The position numbers and the translations under genes are program-made. This document shows positions 3-64,000 of a stretch of DNA of 64,000 nt, piece by piece. The notes beneath the pieces are model-generated. The model searched no databases, was not told where the DNA came from, and saw nothing but the letters and a program-made list of their open reading frames with translations. Each line of letters begins with the position of its first letter. Position 1 is the first letter of the stretch. This stretch comes from an uncultured Planctomycetia bacterium (GTDB lineage Bacteria; Omnitrophota; Gorgyraeia; 2-01-FULL-45-10; JAHFGN01). The stretch covers positions 364-64,363 of the forward strand of contig CAYHAE010000001.1 of assembly GCA_964354545.1 (NCBI GenBank), given 5' to 3'.

Positions 3-632
3 AAGACTGTTGAGACAGAAGGCGGAGAGGCCCTCCCGTCGTTCAAGAGTACGATCGCGGAGCTCTTCGCATCCTGGCAGGGGAGGAGCATCGTCACGCT
101 TAATATAGAGGCGATCGCCCGCACCATCGCATCGAGGTATCCCGACGCGAAAGATGTTATTGTGAGACGCATGTTTCCCGACAGGTTGTCGGTATCGATT
201 CGCTTGAGGAAGCCCGCTGCCCTCGTCGGCAACGATAAGTATTATCCGGTTGACAGGGACGGCGTCATCTTCCCTCACGCAGACCCTTCTCAATGGCAGA
301 AGCTCCCCGTGATCGTGGGCGTGCACATAAAGGAATCGGACAAGGTCGGTACGAGGTGCGAGTCGGCGTCCCTGCAGATTGCCCTAAAGCTCATCGCCGA
401 AATGGAAAGGTCGAAGATCTCGTCCGACTATATCGTCACCACTATCGACGTGTCGGATCCAAAGAACGTCTCTTTCTTTTTAGAGGACGGCGTCGAGGTC
501 AAAATAGGCCATGAGAATTTCAAAGGGCGCTTAGAGAGCCTGGCCCAAACGTTAAAGAATCCCCGGCTCATTATGAGCCGCATAAAATATCTCGACCTGA
601 GGTTTAAGGACATTGTGATAGGGCAAAAATAG
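3..632 (+). CDS. ftsQ: Cell division protein FtsQ, 3' portion. The gene continues upstream of the window.
   Basis: Frame 3 is open from nt 3 with no stop until 630-632, so the track's M at 162 is internal. The sequence has the FtsQ C-terminal/POTRA-like character. The stop overlaps the GTG start of ftsA by 1 nt. Confidence 0.75.
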   Translation, partial: KTVETEGGEALPSFKSTIAELFASWQGRSIVTLNIEAIARTIASRYPDAKDVIVRRMFPDRLSVSIRLRKPAALVGNDKYYPVDRDGVIFPHADPSQWQKLPVIVGVHIKESDKVGTRCESASLQIALKLIAEMERSKISSDYIVTTIDVSDPKNVSFFLEDGVEVKIGHENFKGRLESLAQTLKNPRLIMSRIKYLDLRFKDIVIGQK

Positions 633-1717
633 TGAAAAAATCTACCGTGATTACGGGGTTGGACATAGGGTCCTCAAAGATCTGCGCCGTATCGGGCGAG
701 GTCGGTTCGGACGGGGCGTGCTCCCTCCTCGGCGTCACCACGGTCCCTTCCCGCGGGGTGGAGCGCGGTACGGTTACCGATCTCAATTCAGCTGTGGAAT
801 CGGTGTCGAGGGCGCTCGAGCGGCTTGAAGAGAGGACCGCGCGGAAGATAGAGGACATTTACGTCAATGTGAGCGGCAGGTCCATAATGGCGCAGAAGGC
901 GCGCGGCATGGTGTCCCTCTCAATGAGCGGCAGGGAGATCACGGAAGAGGATATGAGGCGATGTGTCAACGTTGCGAGCACGATGAGGCTGCCGTTCGAG
1001 AGCGAGATCGTTCATAAGATCACACATTCGTACCTCATAGACGATCAGACTGAATCAAGGAACCCCTTGGGGCTGTACGGCTCACGGCTCGCGGTTGAGA
1101 TCTACGTCATCACCGCGGGCCTCAACCACATACAGAACCTCCACAAGGTCATCAATAACTGCGGCTACGAGGTCAAAGAAGCTGTCTTTTCGGCCCTTGC
1201 GGATACATACAGCCTCTTCGATGACGAAGAGAGGGGAGCGGACGTCGCGCTGGTGGACATCGGCAGCTCCCTCACGGAGATCGCCCTGTGCGAAGAAGGT
1301 GTCGTGAGGTACGTTGAGGTCGTTCCTGCAGGTGCGTCAGACATTCAGGGCAGGCTCGACAAGTGCCCGCCTTTCGACAGTATCGTGGACCGGGTCCGGA
1401 AGGCGTTGGATGACTCCGAAGGACGAGGGCGCGGTAAAGGCTTCCGTGCGAGGTCCGTTATCGTCGCAGGCGGGGGGTCTCTTATGGATGGAGCGGTCGA
1501 GGCCTTTGAGTCGGCCCTCGGGATCCCGGCGAGACCCGGAGTCGTGAAGCACCTCCTGGGGAACGCCTCCTCCGCAGACAGCATTATCGCCACGACAGCC
1601 ATGGGCCTTGTGAGGTACGGGTTCGAGAGACAGACCCCTGGCGTAAGGATCCGGCCAAAGAACCTAGTCAAGCGCCTTTCGTCAACGGTCGTTGACATAT
1701 TCAATAACTACTTCTAG
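632..1717 (+). CDS. ftsA: Cell division protein FtsA (actin-like ATPase).
   Basis: GTG start with the N-terminal phosphate-1 motif GLDIGSSKICAV. The 361-aa length is typical. It sits immediately downstream of ftsQ. Confidence 0.9.
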   Translation: MKKSTVITGLDIGSSKICAVSGEVGSDGACSLLGVTTVPSRGVERGTVTDLNSAVESVSRALERLEERTARKIEDIYVNVSGRSIMAQKARGMVSLSMSGREITEEDMRRCVNVASTMRLPFESEIVHKITHSYLIDDQTESRNPLGLYGSRLAVEIYVITAGLNHIQNLHKVINNCGYEVKEAVFSALADTYSLFDDEERGADVALVDIGSSLTEIALCEEGVVRYVEVVPAGASDIQGRLDKCPPFDSIVDRVRKALDDSEGRGRGKGFRARSVIVAGGGSLMDGAVEAFESALGIPARPGVVKHLLGNASSADSIIATTAMGLVRYGFERQTPGVRIRPKNLVKRLSSTVVDIFNNYF

Positions 1718-1846
1718 GCCCCCGCCATATCCGCTCCCGCGCCTTCGGTCCCCACATATCCGGCACCATTCGACACGAATCAGCGGCGCACGAATGTAAT
1801 ATTATCATAGTTACGTCACAGTCTCCTAAATCCGAAATCCGAATAT

Positions 1847-1874
1847 CGTCCGCCAAAGGCGGACGGATTTTGTG
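1847..1874 (+). terminator. Rho-independent terminator after ftsA.
   Basis: Hairpin CGTCCGCC-AAA-GGCGGACG followed by GATTTTGTG. It is embedded in a larger inverted and decameric TTTCGAATTT repeat region at 1826-1916. Confidence 0.6.
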
Positions 1875-2017
1875 CTTCGGATTTGTTTCGAATTTCGGAT
1901 TTCGAGTTTCGAATTTAAACCTATAGCGGACACCGTAACGCCTCATTTCAAATGGTACGCCACCGGCGTACGAAGGCCTTGCTTTTTACATATATTTGTG
2001 ATAATCTCATAGGTCGC

Positions 2018-3572: not shown

Positions 3573-3685
3573 TTTTAGCGTATAGCGGTTAGTAAAATGG
3601 AGCTGACGGTAGAGTGATATACCAAGGTTTTTCACTATGCGCGCTATACGCTAAACGCTATACGCTGACCGCTAAACGCTCGATA
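3573..3685. repeat. Short copy of a terminal-inverted-repeat element. The arms TAGCGTATAGCGGTTAGTA and CTATACGCTAAACGCTATACGCT are separated by about 45 bp.
   Basis: The arms are reverse complements of each other. Near-identical arms flank a 440-bp insert at 61751-62194. Confidence 0.5.
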
Positions 3686-3703: not shown

Positions 3704-4003
3704 ATGTTCGTCCTCGGCAATTTCGTAAGCGCAGTCGCGGTGATCGTGAATTATGCGTTCATTGTGCTGAATTGGCTTATCATCATCCGGGCACTCATAA
3801 GCTGGGTCAATCCGGACCCCTATAATTTGATCGTGCAGTTCCTCTATGCGACCACGGAGCCGATATTAGAGCCATTCAGGAGGATCGTGCCGACCTATCG
3901 TATCGGCATCGATCTCTCGCCGATCCTTGCCATCGTCGTCATCTGGTTCCTCCAGCGTTTTCTTGTGAAGACATTGTTCGACATCGCGGCGAGGCTCTCG
4001 TGA
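3704..4003 (+). CDS. yggT: YggT-family membrane protein.
   Basis: A 99-aa, two-TM protein with the ISWVNPDPYN motif typical of YggT/Ycf19. Confidence 0.85.
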   Translation: MFVLGNFVSAVAVIVNYAFIVLNWLIIIRALISWVNPDPYNLIVQFLYATTEPILEPFRRIVPTYRIGIDLSPILAIVVIWFLQRFLVKTLFDIAARLS

Positions 4004-4218: not shown

Positions 4219-5087
4219 AGGGAAAGATCGGGATCATTGGCGGGAGCGGCCTGTACGATATCGAGGGAATAGAGAACGTGAGGAGCGTGAGGGTGGAGAC
4301 CCCTTTCGGCTTCCCTTCAGATGAGTACACGATCGGGACGCTCGAGGGCAGGGACGTTGTCTTTCTGCCCCGGCATGACAAGGCCCACAGGCTGCTCCCG
4401 AGCGAGGTCAACTACAGGGCCAATATCTACGGCATGAAGAAGCTCGGCGTGGAGAGGATCATCTCCATCTCTGCGGTGGGAAGCCTGAGGAAAGAGCTGA
4501 AGCCGCTCGACATCGTGGTGCCTGACCAGTTCGTCGACAGGACGAATCAGGCGCGGCAGATGACGTTCTTCGGCGGCGGCATCGCGGCCCACATCGCCTT
4601 TGCAGAACCCGTCTGTCCCGTGCTCGCGAAGACGCTCGTCGAATGCGGGAGGTCTGTCGGGGCGACGATGCACGAGAAGGGTACCTACATCAATATGGAA
4701 GGGCCTGCGTTCTCGACAAAGGCGGAATCGTACCTCTACAAGAAGATCTGGGGGATGGACGTCATCGGCATGACGAATATGCCCGAGGCAAAGCTCTCGA
4801 GGGAGGCGGAGATATGTTATGCGACGCTCGCGTGTGTCACCGATTACGACTGCTGGCATCTGGACGAGACAGTCAAGAGCGTATCGATCGACCTCATCAT
4901 ACAGAACCTGCGCAAGAACGTCGAGGTGTCAAAGAGGATAGTAAAAGAGGCCGTCCGGAGGATCCCCGAGGGGAGGGACTGCCTCTGCGCGACGGCGCTC
5001 GAGAATGCGATCGTGACCGCACGCGACAAGATCTCGCCTCAGGTGAAGAAGCGGCTGGACATCATCATTGGACGATACGTCGACTAG
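4212..5087 (+). CDS. mtnP: S-methyl-5'-thioadenosine phosphorylase (PNP/MTAP family).
   Basis: N-terminus [15 protein letters not shown] with ...FLPRHG...[15 protein letters not shown]. This is an MTAP-like purine nucleoside phosphorylase. Confidence 0.8.
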
Positions 5088-14540: not shown

Positions 14541-16301
14541 ATGAGACAGGAGGCACTCACGCTTTTCATCACCATACTGTTCGTCTTTCTTCTGCTGGGC
14601 CTCATCTATGCTCAGGTGCTGAACCACGACGCCTACTACGCTCAATCGCAAAATAATTTCATAAGGATAGTTCCCATCGACGGCCCGCGCGGGAAGATCT
14701 TTGACAGGAACGGCCGCATCATGGTGAACAACAGGCTCTCCCTCGACGTATCGTGCATCTATCAGGAGATAGGCCGCAAGGACCTGTTCATCAAGACGCT
14801 GGGTACGGTGCTTGGTACATCGCCAAGAGGCGTCATTCGGTGTCTGGAAAAGGCGAGCGAAAGGCCCTTTGCCCCCGTGACGCTGCAGGAGGATGTCGAG
14901 AAGGAGCGGGCGATAAGCCTGGAGGAACTCGAACCGGGCGTGCGGGGAGCGGTGATCGAGCCGAAATCAAAGAGGGATTACGTCTACGGATCCGCAGCGG
15001 GGCACATATGCGGATACCTTGGGGAAGTAAATGAAGAAGAGCTCGACCGGCTCAGGGGCTACGGGTACAGGATGCGGGACCTCATAGGCAGGAGCGGCCT
15101 GGAGAAATATTACAATAATTATCTCACGGGTATCGACGGGGGCGAGCAGATAGAAGTAGACGCGAGGGGGAGGCGCGTGAGCCTCCTCGGCCTCAAGGAG
15201 CCAAAGGCGGGGAAAGACCTATGGCTTACCATCGATGCCCGGCTCCAGCAGCTCGCACAGAATCTCCTCGAAGGGAAGACGGGGGCGATCGTGCTGATGG
15301 ACCCGAGGAACGGCGAGGTCCTCGCGCTCGCGAGCAGTCCCGCCTACGATCCCAACACATTTGTGAGGCCGAGAGAATTTGCGGAGCGCATGAGGCTGGT
15401 TGAGGACAGGTCCAAGCCGTTCTTGAACAGGGCGATAGGCGGTGTCTACGCGCCGGGTTCGGTATTCAAGATAGTGACCGCATGCGGAGCGCTCGAAACG
15501 AAAAAGATCTCACGGTATACCCGTTTCACCTGCACAGGAACGTATAAGCTCGGCGGCACTACGTTTCACTGTTGGAAAGAGGGCGGCCATGGGCCCCAGG
15601 ACATCATTGACGCGATCAAAAATTCCTGCAATGTGTTTTTCTATACGGCCGGCAAGAGCCTTGGCGTTGACGCGCTGGAGTCGTACGCGCTGCGGTTCGG
15701 TTTCGGCAAACCAACGGGAATAGACCTGCCTGAGGAGGCCTCCGGCCTTGTCCCCGGCAGGCTGTGGAAGATGCTCGCCAAGAAAGAGGCATGGTACGAT
15801 GGGGAGACGGTCAACTTGGCAATAGGGCAGGGATATCTCATGGTGACGCCGCTCCAGGTGCTCAGGATGACGGCGTGCATCGCGAACGGCGGGAAACTCG
15901 TCCGCCCCTTCATGGTGAAACGCATCGGCCCTGTAGAGGTGGGCAGCTCGCGGCTTCAAGACCTTGGGTTGTCGGCCGAGACCGTAAGGATCATAAAAGA
16001 AGGGATGCTCAAGGTCGTGAACGACGATTCCGGCACGGGCAGGCGCGCGAAAGTGGACGGTCTCGTAATAGGAGGGAAGACGGGAACGGCCCAGAATCCC
16101 CAGGGCGTGCCCCATGCGTGGTTCATCGGGTTTGCCCCAGCGGAAAACCCTTCGTTATCGGTCGTGGTCATGGTCGAGCACGGAGGGAGGGGCGGGTATG
16201 AACCCGCGGAGATCGCCCACGATATATTCAAGGCTGCGCGCGAGATGGGCTATCTGCCCGCTTCAGGTAAGGCAGTATCGGACGTCGCATCGCAGAGGTA
16301 A
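14541..16301 (+). CDS. mrdA: Penicillin-binding protein 2 (peptidoglycan D,D-transpeptidase MrdA).
   Basis: N-terminal TM segment, the PBP dimerisation domain, and transpeptidase motifs SVFK, SCN and KTGTA. Confidence 0.9.
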   Translation: MRQEALTLFITILFVFLLLGLIYAQVLNHDAYYAQSQNNFIRIVPIDGPRGKIFDRNGRIMVNNRLSLDVSCIYQEIGRKDLFIKTLGTVLGTSPRGVIRCLEKASERPFAPVTLQEDVEKERAISLEELEPGVRGAVIEPKSKRDYVYGSAAGHICGYLGEVNEEELDRLRGYGYRMRDLIGRSGLEKYYNNYLTGIDGGEQIEVDARGRRVSLLGLKEPKAGKDLWLTIDARLQQLAQNLLEGKTGAIVLMDPRNGEVLALASSPAYDPNTFVRPREFAERMRLVEDRSKPFLNRAIGGVYAPGSVFKIVTACGALETKKISRYTRFTCTGTYKLGGTTFHCWKEGGHGPQDIIDAIKNSCNVFFYTAGKSLGVDALESYALRFGFGKPTGIDLPEEASGLVPGRLWKMLAKKEAWYDGETVNLAIGQGYLMVTPLQVLRMTACIANGGKLVRPFMVKRIGPVEVGSSRLQDLGLSAETVRIIKEGMLKVVNDDSGTGRRAKVDGLVIGGKTGTAQNPQGVPHAWFIGFAPAENPSLSVVVMVEHGGRGGYEPAEIAHDIFKAAREMGYLPASGKAVSDVASQR

Positions 16302-16813
16302 ATAACGAGGCTCCTATCCGCCTCATGTAAAGCTGTATCGGATGTCGCATCGAAAAGGTAAATAACAAGGCTCCTATCCGCCTCATGTAAAGCTGTATCG
16401 GATGTCGCATTGCGGAGGTAACGCGCGAGGCTCCAGTCCCGACACCAGTGGAAAGCGAAGCGATCCCCGAAATCTTTCAGATTTCAGGGGAGACGTCGCA
16501 TCTCCCTCGACTTCGCTCGGGATGGTTCGTCCCTCGATATAACTCGGGATCGAATCCTGAGCCTGTCGAAGGATTCGAGGGATGGTGAGCAAAGTCGAAC
16601 CAGCAGAGGCAAAGAGCGAGGCTCCTATCCGCCTCCGGCAAAGCTCCATCGGATGTCGCATAGCAGAGGTAAATAACAAGGCTCCTATCCGCCTCATGTA
16701 AAGCTGTATCGGATGTCGCATTGCGGAGGTAACGCGCGAGGCTCCTATCCCGACCCCAGAGGAGTGGCGAAGCGGGATGTCGCATCGCAGAGGCAAAGAG
16801 CGAGGCTCCTATG
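16262..16813. repeat. Tandem array of about five or six degenerate 60-bp units. It runs from the last codons of mrdA to the rodA start codon and is interrupted by a 170-bp structured insert.
   Basis: The unit GTAAATAACGAGGCTCCTATCCGCCTCATGTAAAGCTGTATCGGATGTCGCATCG[CA/AA]GAG appears adjacent at 16300 and 16360, and again at 16610-16800. The copies are all variants of the ancestral mrdA-stop/rodA-RBS junction. Confidence 0.8.
16437..16612. repeat. Hairpin-rich insert (element A) that carries the 27-nt core CCCGAAATCTTTCAGATTTCAGGGGAG.
   Basis: It interrupts one 60-bp unit. Compare the intact unit at 16720-16790. The core at about 16466-16492 is identical to 29608-29634. Confidence 0.5.
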
Positions 16814-20124: not shown

Positions 20125-20193
20125 TCGCCTTATGTAATGATTTGCACCTAATAACGATATAAGATATATGCAATTTCGTTCGTTCAGCGTATT

Positions 20194-20494
20194 TTAGTGA
20201 ATGGTGAATAGTGAATAGGCCACCTTATCCGCCTTCGCAGAAGACCACGGATGTCAACCCGTGGATGAATGCGACCAGATGCTTCGGCGGTCGCCACCAA
20301 GGCTTCGGCGACCGTCCGCCGACGATTCAGTGGCGGACGGATGTCACACCTGACGTGCAGGCGGATACCCCCACCGCCTAGATTTACGAAGTAAATCTGG
20401 TGGGGGTAAAGAAAGGGACCACGGGCGTAAGCCCGTGGGGTTCCATTGGCCATATCGCAAAATTATTCACTAATAACCATTCACTATTCACTAA
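20194..20494. repeat. About 300-bp element with imperfect terminal inverted repeats (left TTAGTGAATGGTGAATAGTGAATAGGCCA, right TGGCCATATCGC...CCATTCACTATTCACTAA). The interior is a string of GC-rich hairpins.
   Basis: The ends are mutual reverse complements. Internal stems include CCACGG/CCGTGG, GTCGCC/GGCGAC, CGTCCGCC/GGCGGACG, CCCCCACC/GGTGGGGG and a GTAA tetraloop hairpin CACGGGC-GTAA-GCCCGTG. Confidence 0.5.
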
Positions 20495-20524
20495 TAATCA
20501 AGGATAGCCAAATTCCAAGCTTGT

Positions 20525-20554
20525 TTGACAAATGCATGTATCTTGAGGTATACT
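20525..20554 (+). promoter_or_regulatory. Sigma-70-type promoter of the GGDEF gene. Layout: TTGACA, 18-nt spacer, TATACT.
   Basis: It sits about 40 nt upstream of the RBS (GGGAGGAG) and the ATG at 20595. It shares the block TTGACAAATG...GGTATACTT with the pilin promoter at 28519. Confidence 0.45.
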
Positions 20555-20594
20555 TAATATGTTTACAGCGGATAACGAGTACGGGAGGAGATGG

Positions 20595-28648: not shown

Positions 28649-28984
28649 ATGGTCAGAAGACATAAAAAGGGATTCACGCTTGTTGAAATCATGATAGTCG
28701 TCGCAATTATAGGTCTATTGGCTGCCATCGCTATCCCGAACTTTGTGAGGGCGAGAGAGACGGCAGAAAGAAATGCGTGTATCGCAAACCTGAAGCAGAT
28801 ACAGGGTGCAGTTCAGGTGTGGGCGATCGACACGAGTGCGGGGTCCACTTCAACGCCAACCGCGACATCAGATCTCGCGAACTACATAAAGACATGGCCG
28901 AAGTGCAAAACAACTACGTATGCGATACCCGCAGTCAGTGCAAACCCCGCGTGTCCAACCACCGGCACTGGACACAACCTCTAA
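28649..28984 (+). CDS. Type IV pilin (prepilin N-terminal cleavage/methylation domain), copy 1.
   Basis: Class III signal MVRRHKKG|FTLVEIMIVVAIIGLLAAIAIP with a Cys pair in the C-terminal region. An RBS (AGGAGG) precedes it. Confidence 0.85.
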   Translation: MVRRHKKGFTLVEIMIVVAIIGLLAAIAIPNFVRARETAERNACIANLKQIQGAVQVWAIDTSAGSTSTPTATSDLANYIKTWPKCKTTTYAIPAVSANPACPTTGTGHNL

Positions 28985-29180: not shown

Positions 29181-29516
29181 ATGGTCAGAAGACATAAAAA
29201 GGGATTCACGCTTGTTGAAATCATGATAGTCGTCGCAATTATAGGTCTATTGGCTGCCATCGCTATCCCGAACTTTGTGAGGGCGAGAGAGACGGCAGAA
29301 AGAAATGCGTGTATCGCAAACCTGAAGCAGATACAGGGTGCAGTTCAGGTGTGGGCGATCGACACGAGTGCGGGGTCCACTTCAACGCCAACCGCGACAT
29401 CAGATCTCGCGAACTACATAAAGTCATGGCCGAAGTGCAAAACAACGACGTATGCGATACCCGCAGTCAGTGCAAACCCCACGTGTCCAACCACCGGCAC
29501 TGGACACAACCTTTAA
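29181..29516 (+). CDS. Type IV pilin, copy 2.
   Basis: The protein differs from copy 1 at 2 of 111 residues (T to S and A to T). The upstream leader and RBS are also duplicated. Confidence 0.85.
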   Translation: MVRRHKKGFTLVEIMIVVAIIGLLAAIAIPNFVRARETAERNACIANLKQIQGAVQVWAIDTSAGSTSTPTATSDLANYIKSWPKCKTTTYAIPAVSANPTCPTTGTGHNL

Positions 29517-29905: not shown

Positions 29906-30241
29906 ATGGTCAGAAGACATAAAAAGGGATTCACGCTTGTTGAAGTCATGATAGTCGTTGCAATCATAGGTCTATTGGCTGCCATCGCCATCCCCAACTT
30001 TGTAAGGGCGAGAGAGACGGCAGAAAAGAGCGCGTGTATATCAAACCTGAAGCAGATACAGGGTGCGGTCGAAATGTGGGTACTCGATACGAGCGCGGCA
30101 TCTTCGTCAACGGCGTCTGGAACATCAGACCTTGTGAATTACATAAAGGTATGGCCAAAGTGTAAGGCGAGCACATATGCGATACCTGCGGCAGACGGAA
30201 CGCCCGTGTGTCCGAACAGCATAGGCGGACACAACCTCTAA
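29906..30241 (+). CDS. Type IV pilin, divergent third paralog.
   Basis: Same N-terminal domain as copies 1 and 2. The variable C-terminal half is divergent but the Cys pair is conserved. Confidence 0.85.
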   Translation: MVRRHKKGFTLVEVMIVVAIIGLLAAIAIPNFVRARETAEKSACISNLKQIQGAVEMWVLDTSAASSSTASGTSDLVNYIKVWPKCKASTYAIPAADGTPVCPNSIGGHNL

Positions 30242-41452: not shown

Positions 41453-41668
41453 AAGTGCAAAGCGTCCGCTACTAAATCATCAGCGGACGCCCGCCAAAGT
41501 TCGCTACTAATGCTTCAGCGAACCCGCTGATGCATTAATGGCGGGCTTTGTGGCGGGCGAAAAACGAAAAACTGTGGTGTCCCTCCGGGACCTAAATGTA
41601 AAGGTCGCGGGAGCGACTCCACCGTTTTGCGTTTTGCGCTTTTAGTTTTTCGCTGGTATGCGCATATC

Positions 41669-51853: not shown

Positions 51854-51931
51854 TTTATACCGTTTGAGAATCGCATCGGCAACGTGTTCCCGAGTTGAGA
51901 TCCCACCTGCTCCCAACGACCGCACTACGCC

Positions 51932-51966
51932 ATACGCAATACGCGATACGCAATACGCAATACGAA
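51932..51966. repeat. Five tandem heptamers ATACGCA / ATACGCG / ATACGAA.
   Basis: Direct reading. It lies in the rsmA-gatC spacer. The motif resembles the CGCTATACGC repeat arms seen elsewhere in the window. Confidence 0.6.
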
Positions 51967-53809: not shown

Positions 53810-53841
53810 TTCCGCCGAAGGCGGATCCGCCTTCGGCGGAA
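53810..53841. repeat. Second copy of the REP-like palindrome TTCCGCCGAAGGCGGATCCGCCTTCGGCGGAA.
   Basis: Matches 41421-41452 at 31 of 32 positions. Confidence 0.7.
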
Positions 53842-53879
53842 AAGTGCAATGTGTAAAGTGTAAGATGTGATCAGATACC

Positions 53880-57766: not shown

Positions 57767-57971
57767 TGGCGGTAATGTATGCAGCATGCGCAGATGACCA
57801 CAGACTTCACGTGCATCGGCATATTCACTGATGATCACAGATGCCGCGGATCAGTGATGATCAGTGAACCCGTGAGTCTTTCATGCGATCCGTGATCATC
57901 TGCGGAAGATCAACGGTGTGCGCGATTTCGCATGAGCCGAGTTTAAAAAATGTCTGTTATAAAGGCCTAAC

Positions 57972-59104: not shown

Positions 59105-59776
59105 ATGATCACTGATTGGCAGATCTTCTTTCGCTTAATACTGGCAGGAATTTTGAGCGGTCTGGTGGGGTTTGAAAGGGAGTACCACGGCAGGGCTGCC
59201 GGTCTCAGGACGCATATATTAGTATGCCTCGGTTCGACCCTCGTGATGCTCACGTCGCTCCACATGTGCGATATGTCGGTGGGTAAGTTTCCGTCCGATC
59301 CCGGCAGGATCGCGGCAGGGGTGGTGACAGGCATTGGATTTTTAGGCGCAGGTACGATAATGCAGTTCAAGGCCTCTGTGAGAGGGCTCACCACCGCCGC
59401 AAGCCTATGGGTCGCCGCGGGGTTAGGCCTTGCAGTGGGGTCGGGATTGTACTTCGCCGCGATCCTTACCACCATAATCACATTGGTCGCGCTCCTCTTC
59501 TTCTCCCGCATAGAGCACGCCCTTATACGGAAGGACTGGTATAAAGTGCTGGCGATCGAATCGGCCGCGGAGGTGGATAACCTCATCCAGATACGGGAGG
59601 CGCTCGCAAATTATGAAGTGGAGGTAAAGGATTTTGACATGACGAAGATGAAGGACGGCACAGCCGTGACCTGGCGCCTGAGCCTGAGGCTTGGCACTTC
59701 GAGCAACGACGCGAACATTATTTCCGATATAGGGCAGATACAAGGGGTGAAGAAGGCGCGCTGGGAGGTGAGCTAG
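59105..59776 (+). CDS. MgtC/SapB-family membrane protein.
   Basis: MgtC N-terminal membrane domain (ILAGILSGLVGFERE..GR.AGLRTH) and a C-terminal ACT-like domain. Confidence 0.8.
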   Translation: MITDWQIFFRLILAGILSGLVGFEREYHGRAAGLRTHILVCLGSTLVMLTSLHMCDMSVGKFPSDPGRIAAGVVTGIGFLGAGTIMQFKASVRGLTTAASLWVAAGLGLAVGSGLYFAAILTTIITLVALLFFSRIEHALIRKDWYKVLAIESAAEVDNLIQIREALANYEVEVKDFDMTKMKDGTAVTWRLSLRLGTSSNDANIISDIGQIQGVKKARWEVS

Positions 59777-59875
59777 ATCGCCTTGCGGGGTATGAAAGGT
59801 CACATGCTTGGCAGAACACGGTAACGTTCCGCGCGAAATAAGGCACGGTGCGGACGAGACGGGGAGGGGGCGCAT

Positions 59876-60421
59876 ATGAAGCTGCGGAAGGAGAAAAGAG
59901 AGGCTGAAGAGAAGGTCCTCGATGTCGATGCGACGATGCAGGGGACGCTCACGTTCAAGGACGCGGTAAACTTGAGGATAAACGGCGGGTTCGAGGGCAA
60001 CCTCAACACGAAGGGCAACCTCATGATAGGCGAGCACGCCACTGTCAATGCCGACGTCATAGGTGAGACGATAATCGTCGCGGGAAAGGTCAACGGGACA
60101 CTCATCGCGGTGAAGGAGCTGAAGCTCGTAGCTCCGGCGGTCGTCGTCGGTGAAATACGGACGCCGCGTCTGAGCATTGCGGAGGGTGCGATATTCGAGG
60201 GTACCTGCCACATGCTGAAGGCGGGGAGGGCCGAGGAGACGAATTCCCCGGTATCGACGCTCATGTCGCTCGATGAGCTCGCGAAATATCTGGAGCTGGA
60301 AGCATCTCTCGTGAGAGAGTGGGCGAGTTCCGGGAAATTGCCCGGCGTAAGGGCGGGCGAGTCGTGGACGTTCGACCGTACCAAGGTTGACGAGTGGGTC
60401 GCGGCGGGGAAGATAAAGTAA
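59876..60421 (+). CDS. Bactofilin domain fused to a C-terminal excisionase-type (HTH_17) DNA-binding domain.
   Basis: The N-terminal 120 aa match the bactofilin/DUF583 beta-helix (GEHATVNADVIGETIIVAGKVNGTL...LSIAEGAIFEGTCHM). The C-terminal 50 aa are a winged HTH of the excisionase/MerR-like type (MSLDELAKYLELEASLVREWASSGKLPGVRAGESWTFDRTKVDEWV). Confidence 0.75.
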   Translation: MKLRKEKREAEEKVLDVDATMQGTLTFKDAVNLRINGGFEGNLNTKGNLMIGEHATVNADVIGETIIVAGKVNGTLIAVKELKLVAPAVVVGEIRTPRLSIAEGAIFEGTCHMLKAGRAEETNSPVSTLMSLDELAKYLELEASLVREWASSGKLPGVRAGESWTFDRTKVDEWVAAGKIK

Positions 60422-60423
60422 GA

Positions 60424-60524
60424 GGTTACATAAGGTTCCATCAGGTTACATAACGTTACATAAGGTTACGAAAGTGGGCAACCTTATGGAACATGAGGGA
60501 ACCTTACGTAACATTATGGAACGT
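60424..60524. promoter_or_regulatory. Periodic array of 13-bp sites with core GTTACATAAGGTT: three direct copies and two or three inverted copies at 10- and 20-bp spacing.
   Basis: Direct sites start at 60424, 60444 and 60454. Inverted sites AACCTTATGGAAC and AACCTTACGTAAC start at 60480 and 60500, with one more at 60514. The array fills the spacer between the two HTH_17 genes. Confidence 0.6.
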
Positions 60525-60532
60525 TTAAAACT

Positions 60533-60934
60533 ATGCCCGAAAGCCTGCTCACAATAAAGGACGTAGCCCGGTATCTCGGTCTGCCCGAGGAAGAGGTGAA
60601 GCGCCTCGTTGATGAAGGGGAGATCCCCGCCTATAAGATCGGGGGGACGTTCCTGCGGTTCAGGAAGGAGCAGATCGAGGCGATAAAAAATGAGATCCGC
60701 ACCCTGGAAGAGAAGGAACCGGAACGCGCGAAGGCCCACCTTGACTCGAAAGGCCGCCCCTCCCGTCCCTACACCGACCTTGAGCGAGAGATAAAGAGAA
60801 GAGAGCCCATGACCCGGCAGTACGACTACACCTTTCCGGAGAGGATCAAGGATTTTTGGTACTTCTGTAATTTCTATGTCCTCTCCACGCTCTTCATTGT
60901 GCTCATCCTGTACATCATTATCCTGCAGACATGA
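60533..60934 (+). CDS. Excisionase-type HTH (HTH_17) protein with a C-terminal transmembrane anchor.
   Basis: N-terminus LLTIKDVARYLGLPEEEVKRLVDEGEIPAYKIGGTFLRFRKEQIEA, then a charged linker, then the hydrophobic FWYFCNFYVLSTLFIVLILYIIIL. Confidence 0.65.
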   Translation: MPESLLTIKDVARYLGLPEEEVKRLVDEGEIPAYKIGGTFLRFRKEQIEAIKNEIRTLEEKEPERAKAHLDSKGRPSRPYTDLEREIKRREPMTRQYDYTFPERIKDFWYFCNFYVLSTLFIVLILYIIILQT

Positions 60935-61014
60935 TGCTGCCTTCGTCCCGGCGAGAAAATGGTGTTTTGAAAAGGAAGCGTGCGAGAGTCTTTGCGCGAA
61001 TTCGGGAATAATCG

Positions 61015-61750
<736 letters not shown>

Positions 61751-61755
<5 letters not shown>

Positions 61756-62194
61756 CGTATAGCGGCTAGTACACTAACATCGCTTATAATATCCATAGTC
61801 CACAGACCACAGACAATAGACCATAGACTGTGAAACGCGGACCATATGCTAAACACCAAAATATCCAGTCACGCATCAGTTTTACGTGTTGAGTGTGTGG
61901 TACGATGAAGGGGTGGACGGATCCAGGGCATAAAAGCGCCCGGGGCCCCCGAGGGGCGGCATTGAGCGGGACGTAAAAATCGCGAGCGGGCACGGATCCC
62001 GAGCCCGCTAAAAGATGTATGCGAGGGAGAGCGAGCGATTTTTCTCGAGTGCAATTTTCCTCGCCGGGGAAAATTGCACGTTCCCGCGAAATGACGACCC
62101 GAGAGGGGGCAAGAGCTTGCAATGAAGGAGGTGGGTGGCATGCTGTATAGGATGCTCAATCCTATACGCTAAACGCTATCCGCTATACGCTATT
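61751..62194. repeat. About 440-bp element flanked by TAGCGTATAGCGGCTAGTA and CTATACGCTAAACGCTATCCGCTATACGCT. It is the long version of the 3573-3685 element.
   Basis: The arms are nearly identical to those at 3573 and 3650. The interior holds a 12-bp-stem hairpin GTGCAATTTTCC/GGAAAATTGCAC. It separates larB from larC. Confidence 0.5.
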
Positions 62195-63367: not shown

Positions 63368-63483
63368 TAAATGACGGTCATTGTGAGGGGTCCCGAAGTT
63401 TCGGACGCGACGAAGCGATCTATCCGCAGCAGCGCTTTAGATTAAGATTGAGATTAAGATTGAGAAATACACGAAGCAGGGGA

Positions 63484-64000
63484 TGAACCTAGAGATGACA
63501 CCAGCCTTACGCAAGACATTTCGCCCGTCGGTCTATGGTCTATGGTCTTTAGTCTTTAGTCTTGCGTCGCTAGTCGTTGGTCTATGGTCCATAGTCTTTA
63601 GTCTTTTTCTGGCCTTCGGTCTCTCCACCGCACGCGCCGACACCGTCATAAAGCGAGACGGCCGCGAGCTGAAGGGGATCATCGTCGAGGATTACTACGA
63701 CAGGATCGTCCTCTCAACGCCTGACGGCGAGGTCCAGGTCCTGAAGTCCGATGTTCGGGAATTATCGTACGACTCTGAAGAAGACAATCTGATAAAACTC
63801 GGAGACCTCGCAAAAGAGAGGAGCAATTACGAAGCCGCCTACTCATACTATGAAAAAGCATTCAACATGAATCCCAATTCGAAACCCGCAAAAGACGGAA
63901 TGATGTACCTCAAGGGGTTCCTCTTCCGAAAAGAAGAGGCGAAGAAGGAAGAGGACATTAAGCGCCGCACAGAGTTCGAACGATACCAGGTTGCCGGGAT
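63484..64000 (+). CDS. 5' part of a secreted or membrane protein (hydrophobic leader, then a possible TPR-like region). It runs off the window end.
   Basis: ATG at 63484. The leader LWSLVFSLASLVVGLWSIVFSLFLAFGLSTARA precedes a soluble region. The frame is still open at 64000. Confidence 0.45.

What the first reader, a model, noticed from the sequence alone, without database searches (positions are those of the whole stretch)
59876..60934. Bactofilin-HTH fusion, periodic 13-bp repeat array and membrane-anchored HTH paralog: candidate DNA-anchoring module
The locus has three parts in a row.
- A polymer-forming bactofilin domain is fused in one polypeptide to an excisionase-type winged HTH.
- A spacer of about 110 bp carries five or six copies of a 13-bp site. 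The core is GTTACATAAGGTT. The copies are in direct and inverted orientation at 10- and 20-bp spacing, so they lie on one face of the helix.
- A second protein has the same HTH domain at its N-terminus and a single transmembrane helix at its C-terminus.

This architecture would let a DNA site array be bound at once by a cytoskeletal polymer and by a membrane anchor. I do not know of a described system with this layout. Known bactofilin-DNA links act through adaptor proteins. An example is PadC recruiting ParB and ParA to BacNOP in Myxococcus. The alternative is more mundane: a pair of autoregulated excisionase-like regulators that happen to carry extra domains.
Basis: partly seen in the sequence, partly recalled or inferred. 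Interest (0 to 1): 0.85.

Follow-up and report, generated by a model that had tools for sequence, protein, structure and literature searches.

The report
Bactofilin-HTH gene pair, generic repeat
A filament-forming bactofilin fused to a small winged-helix domain, and a membrane-anchored partner with the same type of domain, form a conserved uncharacterised gene pair across the uncultured phylum Omnitrophota, but the repeat array between them in this genome is a generic dispersed intergenic repeat, not their dedicated binding site.

Summary
- a 181-aa bactofilin + HTH_17 fusion (59876-60421);
- a 111-bp spacer holding a palindromic array of 10-bp units;
- a 133-aa HTH_17 protein with a C-terminal membrane helix (60533-60934).

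The three-part "DNA-anchoring module" does not hold up.
- **Gene pair.** It is conserved and adjacent in at least 75 of 80 Omnitrophota genome loci. In 52 of 70 measured loci the genes lie 41 bp or less apart, with no array.
- **Spacers in relatives.** Where a spacer exists, even in relatives with 81% and 75% identical fusion proteins, it holds unrelated repeat units.
- **The array is dispersed.** The same ~100-bp element (about 80% identical) fills unrelated housekeeping junctions such as SecY|Adk and HisRS|AspRS on other contigs, one of them shown to be Omnitrophota.
- **The array type is common.** This window alone has at least ten other intergenic short-period arrays.
- **The HTH domains.** Both are acidic (pI about 5). 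The arginine essential for DNA binding in BldC is an invariant Glu/Asp in the fusion.

What remains is a phylum-restricted, uncharacterised bactofilin-wHTH / tail-anchored-wHTH cassette. It is probably a membrane-associated scaffold. The array is a separate, unexplained class of intergenic repeat.

The parts
59876..60421 (+). Gene for the 181-aa bactofilin-wHTH fusion protein
   Evidence: - ORF confirmed.
- Pfam Bactofilin and HTH_17 both match.
- The top 120 homologues all carry both domains at 60-81% identity and are named Candidatus Omnitrophota.
- AlphaFold model has mean pLDDT 80.
59915..60208 (+). Bactofilin beta-helix domain (residues 14-111)
   Evidence: - Pfam E 5e-23.
- Model pLDDT is 86-95 across the domain.
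- Foldseek matches BacA 2n3d (TM 0.84, rmsd 2.1 A) and Thermus bactofilin 6rib.
- F107 aligns with the residue mutated in 6ria (Thermus F105R) and with the BacA residue I count as F130, whose F130R change blocks polymerisation (PMC12448750).
60260..60406 (+). C-terminal BldC/Xis-like winged HTH of the fusion (residues 129-177), after a disordered linker (117-126)
   Evidence: - Pfam HTH_17 E 3e-9.
- NCBIfam TIGR01764 scores 41.3 bits against a cutoff of 28.8.
- Foldseek matches BldC 6ama/6amk at rmsd 1.4-1.5 A over 49 residues, and also RacA and Pukovnik Xis.
- Domain pI is about 5.1. BldC Arg30 aligns to an invariant Glu/Asp at position 148.
60423..60472 (.). Left arm of the intergenic palindromic array: five direct 10-bp units (AGGTTACATA type)
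   Evidence: the repeat finder family D1 has spacing 10, 10, 10, 10. TRF reports period 10, 4.7 copies.
60473..60483 (.). Centre of the palindrome
   Evidence: The inverted-repeat arms 60425-60467 and 60480-60522 are separated by 12 nt.
60484..60523 (.). Right arm: about four inverted 10-bp units (TTATGGAACN type)
   Evidence: - Seen.
- The whole element 60423-60523 aligns at about 80% identity with elements at unrelated junctions on other contigs.
60533..60934 (+). Gene for the 133-aa tail-anchored wHTH membrane protein
   Evidence: - ORF confirmed.
- Pfam HTH_17 E 7e-13.
- Found immediately downstream of the fusion in at least 75 of 80 genome loci.
- 435 homologues, named Omnitrophota/Omnitrophica wherever a source names the organism.
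60545..60691 (+). N-terminal winged HTH (residues 5-53) of the membrane protein
   Evidence: - Pfam match.
- Best PDB sequence hit is Pukovnik Xis 4j2n, E 0.002.
- Invariant K23, R24, R42, R44 and K45, but domain pI is about 5.5.
60851..60925 (+). Conserved aromatic juxtamembrane motif (DFFYFNDFYI type) and the single C-terminal transmembrane helix (residues 107-131)
   Evidence: - The motif is conserved in alignment A2 and across the loci.
- Kyte-Doolittle maxima are about 2-3 in the homologues.
- AlphaFold models a helix at 101-132 with pLDDT 81-94.

Best explanation
The locus holds two separate things.

**(1) A conserved two-gene cassette restricted to Omnitrophota.**
- A bactofilin has acquired a C-terminal BldC/Xis-type winged HTH on a flexible linker.
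- It is co-transcribed, and usually abuts, a tail-anchored membrane protein whose cytoplasmic end is a diverged domain of the same family.
- I infer that they work together at the inner face of the membrane. The bactofilin polymer displays an array of wHTH domains, and the tail-anchored protein sits beside it.
- The wHTH domains most likely act as docking modules between the two proteins, and possibly for a client. Nucleic-acid binding is a secondary possibility, more plausible for the membrane protein than for the fusion.

**(2) A ~100-bp palindromic array of 10-bp units that happens to fill the gap between the two genes in this genome.**
- It is one copy of a dispersed family of intergenic elements.
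- It belongs to a much larger class of short-period (mostly 7-bp) direct/inverted arrays. These occupy gene junctions throughout Omnitrophota genomes and turn over quickly.
- On the bicistronic mRNA it would form a long imperfect hairpin 1 nt after the first stop codon and 10 nt before the next start codon. It may therefore uncouple expression of the two cistrons, REP-like. It is not a conserved or dedicated part of the cassette.

**Shown and inferred.**
- Shown: domain content, conservation, synteny, variable spacer, dispersal of the element.
- Inferred: membrane scaffold, docking role, mRNA-hairpin effect.
For: **Cassette.**
- The top 120 homologues all carry PF04519 and PF12728.
- 374 matching stretches were found in a collection with one genome per species. 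The best 80 are all Omnitrophota-type MAGs.
- Only 38 cluster representatives out of 1.84 billion reach E <= 1e-30.
- The HTH-TM gene lies directly downstream in at least 75 of 80 loci. The gap is 41 bp or less in 52 of 70 loci.
- The fold is confirmed.
- A hydrophobic residue (F/L107) sits at the position whose mutation blocks polymerisation in other bactofilins (PMC12448750).
- The family N-terminus MMGKKDKK resembles the BacA membrane-targeting peptide MFSKQAKS (PMC12448750).
- Both wHTH domains are acidic, pI 5.1 and 5.5, against about 10.4 for the BldC and Xis fragments. Glu/Asp replaces BldC Arg30 in the fusion (PMC5859096).
- There is precedent for an HTH protein that docks on bactofilins at the membrane: BacR (PMC13649987).

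**Array.**
- The relatives at 81% and 75% identity have spacers at the same junction with unrelated content.
- Other loci carry different units: GTGAATA, AGCGNNN, AGCTNNN, AAAANNN.
- Arrays pile up at every conserved junction.
- 84 period-7 arrays comprise 71 distinct heptamers.
- The window holds at least 10 other intergenic arrays.
- The focal element aligns at about 80% identity with elements between SecY|Adk, HisRS|AspRS, ArsP|HcyBio, a Trp/Tyr-tRNA-synthetase-like gene|ScpA, and others.
- Four of those copies come from a single metagenome.
- One array-bearing contig (L121) is Omnitrophota by RecG.
- The hairpin has dG -33.9 kcal/mol, z = -3.6.
Against: - No experiment exists, and the docking role of the wHTH domains is inference only.
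- HTH_17 proteins are normally DNA binders. Both domains keep conserved basic wing residues, and the membrane protein keeps Arg at the BldC Arg30 position. DNA binding therefore cannot be excluded.
- A 10-bp direct-repeat array is what a BldC/Xis-type domain would be expected to bind head to tail (PMC5859096).
- Only 64 kb of the source genome could be searched, and the unit occurs there only in this spacer.
- Spacers are somewhat more frequent at this junction than at the next one (18 against 11 of 70), although not significantly.
- In L059, two copies of one array family bracket the cassette.
- The minus strand folds better than the plus strand, and covariation is nearly absent. The mRNA-hairpin role is therefore unsupported beyond the palindrome itself.
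Confidence: 0.6

Rival explanations
1. The array is the cognate site of both wHTH domains. A DNA segment is thereby held at once by a bactofilin polymer and a membrane anchor, as a centromere-like or chromosome-anchoring module.
For: - All three parts lie in a row.
- The wHTH is closest in structure to BldC, which binds 9-bp direct repeats head to tail at one helical turn spacing (PMC5859096).
- The 10-bp phasing fits that mode, and the unit is unique to the spacer within 64 kb.
Against: - No array at this junction in 52 of 70 orthologous loci.
- The closest relatives carry unrelated repeats although their proteins are nearly the same.
- The same element sits at SecY|Adk, HisRS|AspRS and other junctions with no fusion or HTH-TM gene on those contigs.
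- The wHTH domains are acidic, and the fusion lacks the BldC Arg30 equivalent.
- No ParA, ParM or TubZ-type partner is among the neighbours.
Confidence: 0.06
2. The cassette is a DNA-membrane tether or nucleoid organiser that binds DNA elsewhere, at sites not identified here. The tail-anchored protein would be the main DNA binder, working like Noc or RacA-DivIVA.
For: - Both proteins belong to HTH_17 / TIGR01764.
- The membrane protein has invariant K23, R24, R42, R44 and K45, with R24 at the BldC Arg30 position.
- RacA's DNA-binding domain is among the structural neighbours.
- The pair is conserved across the phylum in a housekeeping context.
Against: - Net negative charge of both domains.
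- Invariant acidic residues (E19-E21, D27, E30) flank the recognition helix of the membrane protein.
- No conserved candidate site was found near the genes.
Confidence: 0.25
3. A pair of autoregulated excisionase-like regulators or recombination directionality factors belonging to a mobile element.
For: Sources annotate the proteins as "excisionase family DNA binding protein". They match TIGR01764.
Against: - The synteny YibQ-like, TsaD, (MgtC), fusion, HTH-TM, LarB is stable in close relatives. Across the 80 genomes a ~246-aa ORF usually follows the pair, and array positions mark conserved junctions.
- The Pfam-scanned neighbours are all housekeeping genes, with no integrase among them.
- No relative in 2.9 million viral contigs.
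- No conserved operator upstream of the genes.
Confidence: 0.04
4. The array is a functional cis-regulatory element selected at this junction. It would act as an intercistronic terminator, attenuator or processing hairpin that sets the ratio of polymer to anchor. It would not be a neutral or selfish dispersed repeat.
For: - All three members of the window's closest clade have some structured spacer here. In L127 it contains GC hairpins followed by T-runs.
- The element starts 1 nt after the stop codon and ends 10 nt before the start codon.
- The predicted hairpin is stable.
Against: - No terminator-like site in the focal spacer.
- The minus strand folds better than the plus strand.
- Covariation term +0.66, with one compensatory pair out of 31.
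- No enrichment over the neighbouring junction.
Confidence: 0.3

Closest known systems
BacNOP-PadC-ParB/ParA scaffold of Myxococcus xanthus (PMC5703909)
   Same: A bactofilin polymer linked to DNA-binding machinery and chromosome organisation.
   Different: - There the link runs through a separate adaptor (PadC) to ParB-parS and ParA. Here a wHTH is fused to the bactofilin itself.
- No Par components are adjacent.
- DNA binding by the fused domain is doubtful.
BacR (YhbD, DUF4004) with bactofilins BacE/BacF of Bacillus subtilis (PMC13649987)
   Same: An HTH protein encoded in the same operon as bactofilins. It binds them physically and is recruited by them to the membrane. Bactofilin binding lowers its DNA binding, and the predicted interface lies near the HTH motif.
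   Different: - BacR is a separate, soluble protein of a different family. It is a proven DNA binder that regulates its own operon.
- In Omnitrophota one HTH is fused to the bactofilin and the other is tail-anchored.
- Nothing has been tested experimentally for the Omnitrophota pair.
BldC of Streptomyces, and Xis-type architectural wHTH proteins (PMC5859096; PDB 6AMA, 6AMK, 4J2N)
   Same: Closest fold to the fusion's C-terminal domain, at rmsd about 1.5 A. It is a minimal wHTH without a coiled coil. It multimerises head to tail on direct repeats spaced one helical turn apart.
   Different: - BldC is basic. Its Arg30 and Lys26 read bases, and R30A abolishes DNA binding.
- The fusion has an invariant Glu/Asp at the Arg30 position, a small residue (Ser, Gly or Ala) at the Lys26 position, and pI about 5.
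- The score is below the NCBIfam BldC cutoff, 15.9 against 77 bits.
RacA-DivIVA chromosome anchor and Noc (from general knowledge; RacA DNA-binding domain 5I44 is among the fold hits)
   Same: A MerR-like wHTH coupled to a polar scaffold (RacA) or to the membrane (Noc), which tethers DNA to the cell envelope.
   Different: RacA and Noc bind defined chromosomal sites and are basic DNA binders. No sites and no DNA binding are established here.
RodZ-MreB (from general knowledge)
   Same: A bitopic membrane protein whose cytoplasmic HTH contacts a cytoskeletal polymer rather than DNA.
   Different: RodZ has an XRE-type HTH and a sizeable periplasmic domain. The protein here has only two residues beyond its membrane helix, and its partner is a bactofilin.
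Dispersed intergenic palindromic repeats (REP/BIME, MITE-like elements; from general knowledge) and intergenic heptamer direct repeats (TAACTGA in Beggiatoaceae, Cyanobacteria and Bacteroidetes, PMC4679880)
   Same: - Short palindromic or tandem units confined to gene junctions.
- Many copies at unrelated loci.
- They often end a few nucleotides before a start codon.
- They vary in presence and in copy number between relatives.
   Different: - Here each arm is itself a tandem array of 7-10-bp units, direct on one side and inverted on the other, around a core of 0-400 bp.
- Dozens of different unit sequences coexist: 71 heptamers in 84 arrays.
- No transposase or binding factor is known.

Membership tests
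Bactofilin (PF04519) | Profile match to the bactofilin/DUF583 domain above the curated threshold | tested here: met
   81.5 bits against a cutoff of 27.9, residues 14-111. PDB profile hits to BacA 2n3d (E 5e-7) and Thermus bactofilin 6ria (E 6e-5).
Bactofilin (PF04519) | Right-handed beta-helix fold | tested here: met
   AlphaFold pLDDT is 86-95 over residues 20-110. Foldseek TM is 0.84 to BacA at rmsd 2.1 A.
Bactofilin (PF04519) | Hydrophobic residue at the end-to-end polymerisation interface (BacA F130, Thermus F105) | tested here: met
   F107 (F or L across the family) aligns to the Thermus residue named in the 6ria F105R entry and to the BacA residue I count as F130 (PMC12448750). This rests on alignment only.
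Bactofilin (PF04519) | Nucleotide-independent polymer formation | not testable with these tools
   Needs pelleting assays or electron microscopy.
Bactofilin (PF04519) | N-terminal membrane-targeting peptide (MFSKQAKS type; F2, K4 and K7 critical) | tested here: inconclusive
   The family consensus MMGKKDKK has a hydrophobic residue 2 and Lys at positions 4 and 7. The window protein is MKLRKEK, with Lys at position 2 (PMC12448750).
HTH_17 / excisionase-type wHTH (PF12728, TIGR01764) | Profile match above threshold, and a wHTH fold | tested here: met
   - Pfam scores 37.4 and 49.1 bits against a cutoff of 27.
- TIGR01764 scores 41.3 and 45.1 bits against a cutoff of 28.8.
- Fold matches BldC, Xis and RacA. 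Secondary structure is H-H-beta-beta-H.
BldC family (NF033787) | Family-level profile score; basic surface; Arg30 base contact | tested here: not met
   - 15.9 bits against a cutoff of 77.
- pI about 5.1 against about 10.4 for the BldC fragment.
- Arg30 corresponds to an invariant Glu/Asp148 in the fusion.
- The membrane protein keeps Arg24 but is also acidic.
Excisionase / recombination directionality factor of a mobile element | Association with an integrase, att sites and a mobile or viral context | tested here: not met
   The neighbourhood is housekeeping and the same in close relatives. There is no relative in viral contigs.
Partition centromere or iteron array with adjacent binding-protein genes (parC/ParR, tubC/TubR, omega heptads) | The repeat array is conserved together with the genes for its binding proteins | tested here: not met
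   The array is absent in 52 of 70 loci. Where spacers exist the units are unrelated, including in the relatives at 81% and 75% identity.
Partition centromere or iteron array with adjacent binding-protein genes (parC/ParR, tubC/TubR, omega heptads) | The array is specific to that locus | tested here: not met
   The same element, about 80% identical, lies at unrelated junctions on at least 8 other contigs. Whether this holds within the source genome could not be tested beyond 64 kb.
Partition centromere or iteron array with adjacent binding-protein genes (parC/ParR, tubC/TubR, omega heptads) | A partner NTPase (ParA, ParM or TubZ) | tested here: not met
   The neighbours are MgtC, TsaD, LarB and LarC.
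Dispersed intergenic palindromic repeat (REP/MITE-like) | Multiple related copies at unrelated intergenic sites | tested here: met
   - Nine aligned copies with 76% mean column identity.
- Four copies in a single metagenome, Ga0315285.
- The flanking genes differ between copies.
- A copy lies about 1.1 kb downstream of the fusion gene in L043.
Dispersed intergenic palindromic repeat (REP/MITE-like) | An imperfect palindrome able to form a hairpin | tested here: met
   43-nt arms, 77% complementary. dG is -33.9 kcal/mol on the plus strand and -40.9 on the minus strand, with z -3.6 and -6.1.
Dispersed intergenic palindromic repeat (REP/MITE-like) | Presence/absence and copy-number polymorphism between relatives | tested here: met
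   Junction content differs between relatives. L110 and L113 have 3 and 4 units with the same flanks.
Dispersed intergenic palindromic repeat (REP/MITE-like) | A mobilising enzyme or target-site duplication | not tested
   No transposase or RAYT gene was looked for, and no obvious duplication flanks the element.
Membrane-anchored one-component regulators (ToxR/CadC type) | N-terminal cytoplasmic HTH, a single membrane helix, and a periplasmic sensor domain | tested here: not met
   The HTH and the single helix are present. Only two residues follow the helix, so there is no sensor domain.

The most novel reading that the evidence does not exclude
The phylum-wide bactofilin-wHTH and tail-anchored-wHTH pair is an adaptor-free link between cytoskeleton, membrane and DNA. 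Polymerised wHTH domains and the membrane partner would bind periodic repeat arrays, such as the GTTMCATAAG family, that are dispersed around Omnitrophota chromosomes. This would tether the nucleoid to the envelope. The copy between the two genes would be just one of many sites.
Probability: 0.1. Interest if true: 0.8.

Novelty: new variant of a known kind. Interest (0 to 1): 0.45.

Why it matters
- **A new bactofilin variant.** Bactofilins are known to reach DNA or regulators only through separate partners such as PadC and BacR. A bactofilin permanently fused to a BldC-like wHTH, always paired with a tail-anchored wHTH protein, is conserved across an entire uncultured phylum of often ultra-small cells. 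This gives a concrete, testable entry into how that phylum organises its envelope or nucleoid.
- **A corrected reading of the array.** The array that made the locus look special is a generic element. Treating it as such avoids building a centromere story on it.
- **A wider phenomenon.** Omnitrophota gene junctions are filled with direct/inverted arrays of 7-10-bp units from many families. I found no description of these in the searched literature, and their origin and function are unknown.

Tried and rejected
- **Pairwise BLASTP of the two proteins.** No significant alignment. The homology of the HTH domains showed only through Pfam and through tblastn cross-hits.
- **Promoter and terminator scan of 59700-61100.** No promoter-like site. 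The only terminator-like hit lies on the wrong strand, inside the second gene.
- **Rfam on the whole window.** No family matched, so the structured intergenic regions are not known RNAs.
- **RNA-level selection for the hairpin.** The minus strand folds better than the plus strand. RNAalifold on nine family members gave one compensatory pair out of 31 and a covariation term of +0.66. Inconclusive.
- **Counting the unit genome-wide in the source organism.** Not possible.
  - The LarC look-up found nothing.
  - The FtsA-like look-up returned a 6-kb contig with different neighbours.
  - The fusion look-up returned only a 2.5-kb Logan contig.
- **Enrichment of spacers at this junction over the next one.** 18 against 11 of 70, p = 0.21. 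Rejected as evidence for a special role.
- **Apparent absence of the HTH-TM gene in 16 loci.** tblastn found the gene in the 13 loci I re-tested, where my ORF caller had missed it, apparently because no ATG/GTG/TTG start precedes the conserved N-terminus; L003, L018 and L046 were not re-tested.
- **Viral origin.** No relative in IMG/VR.
- **Literature searches.** Nothing on Omnitrophota repeats or on bactofilin-HTH fusions.
Full report
**Observation.**

ORF 59876-60421 (+) encodes 181 aa and ORF 60533-60934 (+) encodes 133 aa. They are separated by 111 bp.
- Pfam places residues 14-111 of the first protein in Bactofilin (E 5e-23) and residues 129-177 in HTH_17 (E 3e-9).
- Pfam places residues 5-53 of the second protein in HTH_17 (E 7e-13).
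- The second protein ends in a hydrophobic stretch, F108-L131, with two residues after it.

The spacer carries seven copies of GTTACATAAGGTT with 2 or fewer mismatches: four direct and three inverted. Only one such match lies elsewhere in the 64 kb.

The 13-mers overlap by 3 nt, so the true unit is a 10-bp tandem repeat. There are five direct and about four inverted units. Together they form a 43-nt imperfect palindrome that is 77% complementary.

An independent assembly reproduces the spacer exactly.

**The proteins.**

AlphaFold models of both proteins were built with alignments of homologues.
- The fusion gives a confident beta-helix (pLDDT 86-95), a disordered linker (117-126) and a wHTH (pLDDT about 80).
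- The second protein gives a wHTH and a long C-terminal helix, 101-132.

Foldseek matches the N-terminal domain of the fusion to BacA (TM 0.84) and to Thermus bactofilin. It matches the C-terminal domain best to BldC (rmsd 1.4-1.5 A over 49 residues), followed by RacA, Pukovnik Xis and MerR-type domains.

F107 aligns with the phenylalanine whose mutation blocks polymerisation in BacA and in Thermus bactofilin (PMC12448750).

The family N-terminus (MMGKKDKK) resembles the BacA membrane-targeting peptide. The window protein (MKLRKEK) resembles it less (PMC12448750).

Two observations weaken the assumption that these domains bind DNA as BldC does.
- Both wHTH domains are acidic across 20 homologues each, with mean pI 5.1 and 5.5. 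The aligned BldC and Xis fragments have pI about 10.4.
- BldC Arg30 makes the specific base contact, and R30A abolishes binding (PMC5859096). It aligns to an invariant Glu/Asp in the fusion.

The membrane protein keeps Arg24 at that position and has a basic wing. Its recognition helix is nevertheless flanked by invariant acidic residues.

**Conservation of the gene pair.**

- The fusion has more than 1,300 database relatives. The top 120 all carry both domains at 60-81% identity and, where named, come from Candidatus Omnitrophota.
- A scan of one genome per species found 374 matching stretches. The best 80 are all Omnitrophota-type MAGs, including three complete chromosomes.
- Among 1.84 billion cluster representatives, only 38 reach E <= 1e-30, and about two dozen of them are full-length. 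The rest are ordinary bactofilins. This is a compact family restricted to one phylum.
- The HTH-TM gene lies directly downstream in at least 75 of 80 loci.
- It carries a conserved aromatic juxtamembrane motif (DFFYFNDFYI) and is itself 58-68% identical across the homologues sampled.
- The neighbourhood is housekeeping: a YibQ-like deacetylase, TsaD and MgtC upstream, LarB and LarC downstream. It is the same in close relatives.
- No relative exists in 2.9 million viral contigs.
- NCBIfam has no specific model for either protein.
- I found no paper describing the pair.

**The array is not part of the cassette.**

In 52 of 70 loci where both junctions could be measured, the two genes are 41 bp or less apart, usually 0-20 bp. 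A spacer of 60 bp or more occurs in 18 loci. The next junction has one in 11 loci (Fisher p = 0.21).

Where a spacer exists it again holds short tandem units, direct on the left and inverted on the right. The unit differs in every genome: GTGAATA x8 in L012, AGCGNNN in L024, AGCTNNN in L068, AAAANNN in L072, and others.

The closest relatives share the whole synteny and have a spacer at this junction, but its content is unrelated.
- L124/L125 (fusion protein 81% identical) carry AAAGCGA-type heptamers plus a 113-bp GC-hairpin element. That element also occurs upstream of the fusion gene.
- L126/L127 (75% identical) carry GCGTAAA/TTTTCGC arms around two GC hairpins.

Proteins that are nearly identical therefore sit next to arrays that share nothing.

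**The array type is generic.**

- The window has at least ten other intergenic short-period arrays, mostly of 7-bp period. Many have a direct left arm and an inverted right arm around a core of 0-400 bp. Their positions are 1824-1916, 3576-3680, 20195-20493, 41558-41642, 51921-51964, 53841-53863, 57825-57867, 61753-62193 and 63439-63606.
- Across the 80 loci, arrays pile up at every conserved gene junction.
- Period 7 dominates.
- 84 period-7 arrays comprise 71 distinct heptamers.
- Some families recur between genomes at different junctions. A 31-mer upstream of LarC in the window (62162-62193) is identical to the right arm of the fusion|HTH-TM spacer of L024.

**The focal element itself is dispersed.**

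A scan of the metagenome collection for two consecutive units found 43 contigs. None of them encodes the fusion or the HTH-TM protein.

About a dozen have the same palindromic build. Eight align end to end with the focal 101 bp at about 80% identity. In the nine-sequence alignment the mean column identity is 76%, the GTTAC cores are invariant, and unit positions 8-10 are variable.

Each copy exactly fills the gap between two housekeeping genes: SecY|Adk, HisRS|AspRS, ArsP|HcyBio and a Trp/Tyr-tRNA-synthetase-like gene|ScpA. Others lie next to IspH and upstream of TrpD.

- Four copies come from one metagenome and have different flanks.
- One array-bearing contig (L121) is Omnitrophota: its RecG is 90% identical to that of an Omnitrophota MAG.
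- L043, an Omnitrophica genome, has a family member about 1.1 kb downstream of its fusion gene.

**What the array might do.**

It starts 1 nt after the stop codon and ends 10 nt before the next start codon. It folds into a stable hairpin (dG -33.9 kcal/mol, z -3.6).

A REP-like intercistronic effect on mRNA decay, termination or translational coupling is plausible. The evidence for it is weak.
- The minus strand folds better than the plus strand.
- There is no terminator-like site.
- Covariation is almost absent.

Invariant cores at a fixed period with variable linkers would also fit an array of protein-binding sites. With dozens of unit families, no single binder, and certainly not the two conserved wHTH proteins, can account for the class.

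I leave the origin and function of the arrays as unexplained.

**How the cassette most likely works.**

What is shown:
- a polymer-type bactofilin domain;
- a flexible linker;
- a BldC-like wHTH that lacks the BldC base-contact arginine;
- an obligately adjacent tail-anchored wHTH partner;
- tight gene spacing that suggests co-expression.

What I infer:
- The polymer lies at the membrane, through its basic N-terminal peptide, the partner, or both, and displays wHTH domains.
- The two wHTH domains serve mainly as docking modules. This is analogous to RodZ-MreB and to BacR, whose HTH region is predicted to contact bactofilins and which they recruit to the membrane (PMC13649987).
- I put this at about 0.4-0.5. 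DNA tethering at unidentified sites is at about 0.25. The original array-binding model is at about 0.06.

**Comparison and novelty.**

The fusion is a member of the bactofilin family on every feature that could be tested. Both proteins are members of HTH_17.
- Neither is a BldC-family member: the score is below cutoff, and the key residue and the charge are not met.
- Neither is an excisionase in the functional sense, because there is no mobile context.
- The array fails the tests for a partition centromere. It passes those for a dispersed intergenic palindromic repeat, although no mobilising enzyme is known.

The cassette is a new variant of a known kind. It is of moderate interest to people working on bacterial cytoskeletons and on Omnitrophota. 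The array class is a separate curiosity worth a systematic survey.

Noticed in passing
window 1824-1916, 3576-3680, 20195-20493, 41558-41642, 51921-51964, 53841-53863, 57825-57867, 61753-62193, 63439-63606: At least ten intergenic regions in the 64 kb carry short-period (mostly 7-bp) tandem arrays. They are often direct on the left and inverted on the right, around GC hairpins or a longer core. Each has its own unit, for example AAATCCG, TAGCGNN, GTGAATA, CGAAAAA, CGCAATA and GGTCTAT. The same holds at the gene junctions of 80 other Omnitrophota loci, where 84 arrays comprise 71 distinct heptamers. I found no description of this in the searched literature.
   Followed up: partly
window 62162-62193 and L024 1897-1927: The 31-mer CTATACGCTAAACGCTATCCGCTATACGCTA lies just upstream of LarC in the window. 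It is identical to the right arm of the fusion|HTH-TM spacer array in a different Omnitrophota genome. The TAGCGTA family also occurs at window 3576-3680 and in L004.
   Followed up: partly
window 16258-16812; L124 2837-2949 and 3657-3770: A ~570-bp intergenic stretch holds about 6-8 tandem copies of a 60-bp unit (core CGGATGTCGCATCGCAGAGGTAAATAA...GGCTCC). The same core lies in a 113-bp GC-hairpin element that occurs twice in the closest relative (109 of 113 identical), on both sides of its fusion gene. There is no Rfam match. It could be a dispersed structured element or an RNA gene family.
   Followed up: partly
L059 (CP070837.1) 3877-3959 and 4900-4986: Two complete palindromic arrays of the same unit (CACTGAA / TTCAGTG) bracket the fusion + HTH-TM cassette. 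Each ends just before a ribosome-binding site and start codon. No other copy occurs in the 8.5-kb locus (8 matches against 0.1 expected).
   Followed up: partly
window 61756-62194: A 440-bp gap between LarB and LarC is flanked by inverted TAGCGTA-type arrays and contains CCACAGA repeats. It has no convincing ORF and no Rfam hit.
   Followed up: no
window 20125-20558: A 434-bp intergenic region has inverted GTGAATA-type arrays (20195-20218 and 20464-20493) flanking about 250 bp that appears to contain several GC-rich hairpins. The same heptamer forms an 8-copy array in the fusion|HTH-TM spacer of L012.
   Followed up: no
L040, L045, L049-L051, L056, L060, L062, L069, L077, L080 (about 20-380 bp after the fusion stop): In one clade the HTH-TM gene is clearly present by tblastn, but no ATG, GTG or TTG start codon precedes the conserved N-terminus. 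This suggests an unusual start codon or a mis-placed start.
   Followed up: no
L110 versus L113; L088, L106, L119, L122: Contigs with matching flanks differ by one 10-bp unit (3 against 4 copies of GGTTCCATAA), which shows slippage-type copy-number change. Several low-GC metagenome contigs carry long purely direct arrays of the same unit, roughly 10 to 30 or more copies, and are probably unrelated satellites.
   Followed up: no
window 28649-28984, 29181-29516, 29906-30241: Three tandem ORFs of identical length (111 aa) lie in an otherwise gene-dense region and could be a small paralogous family. I did not compare or examine them.
   Followed up: no
window 632-1717 and L128: An FtsA/PilM-like protein identical to the one in the window occurs on a 6.2-kb Logan contig followed by an Opp-type ABC transporter on the opposite strand. 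I did not compare those neighbours with the window's. A difference would mean strain rearrangement or a chimeric assembly.
   Followed up: no
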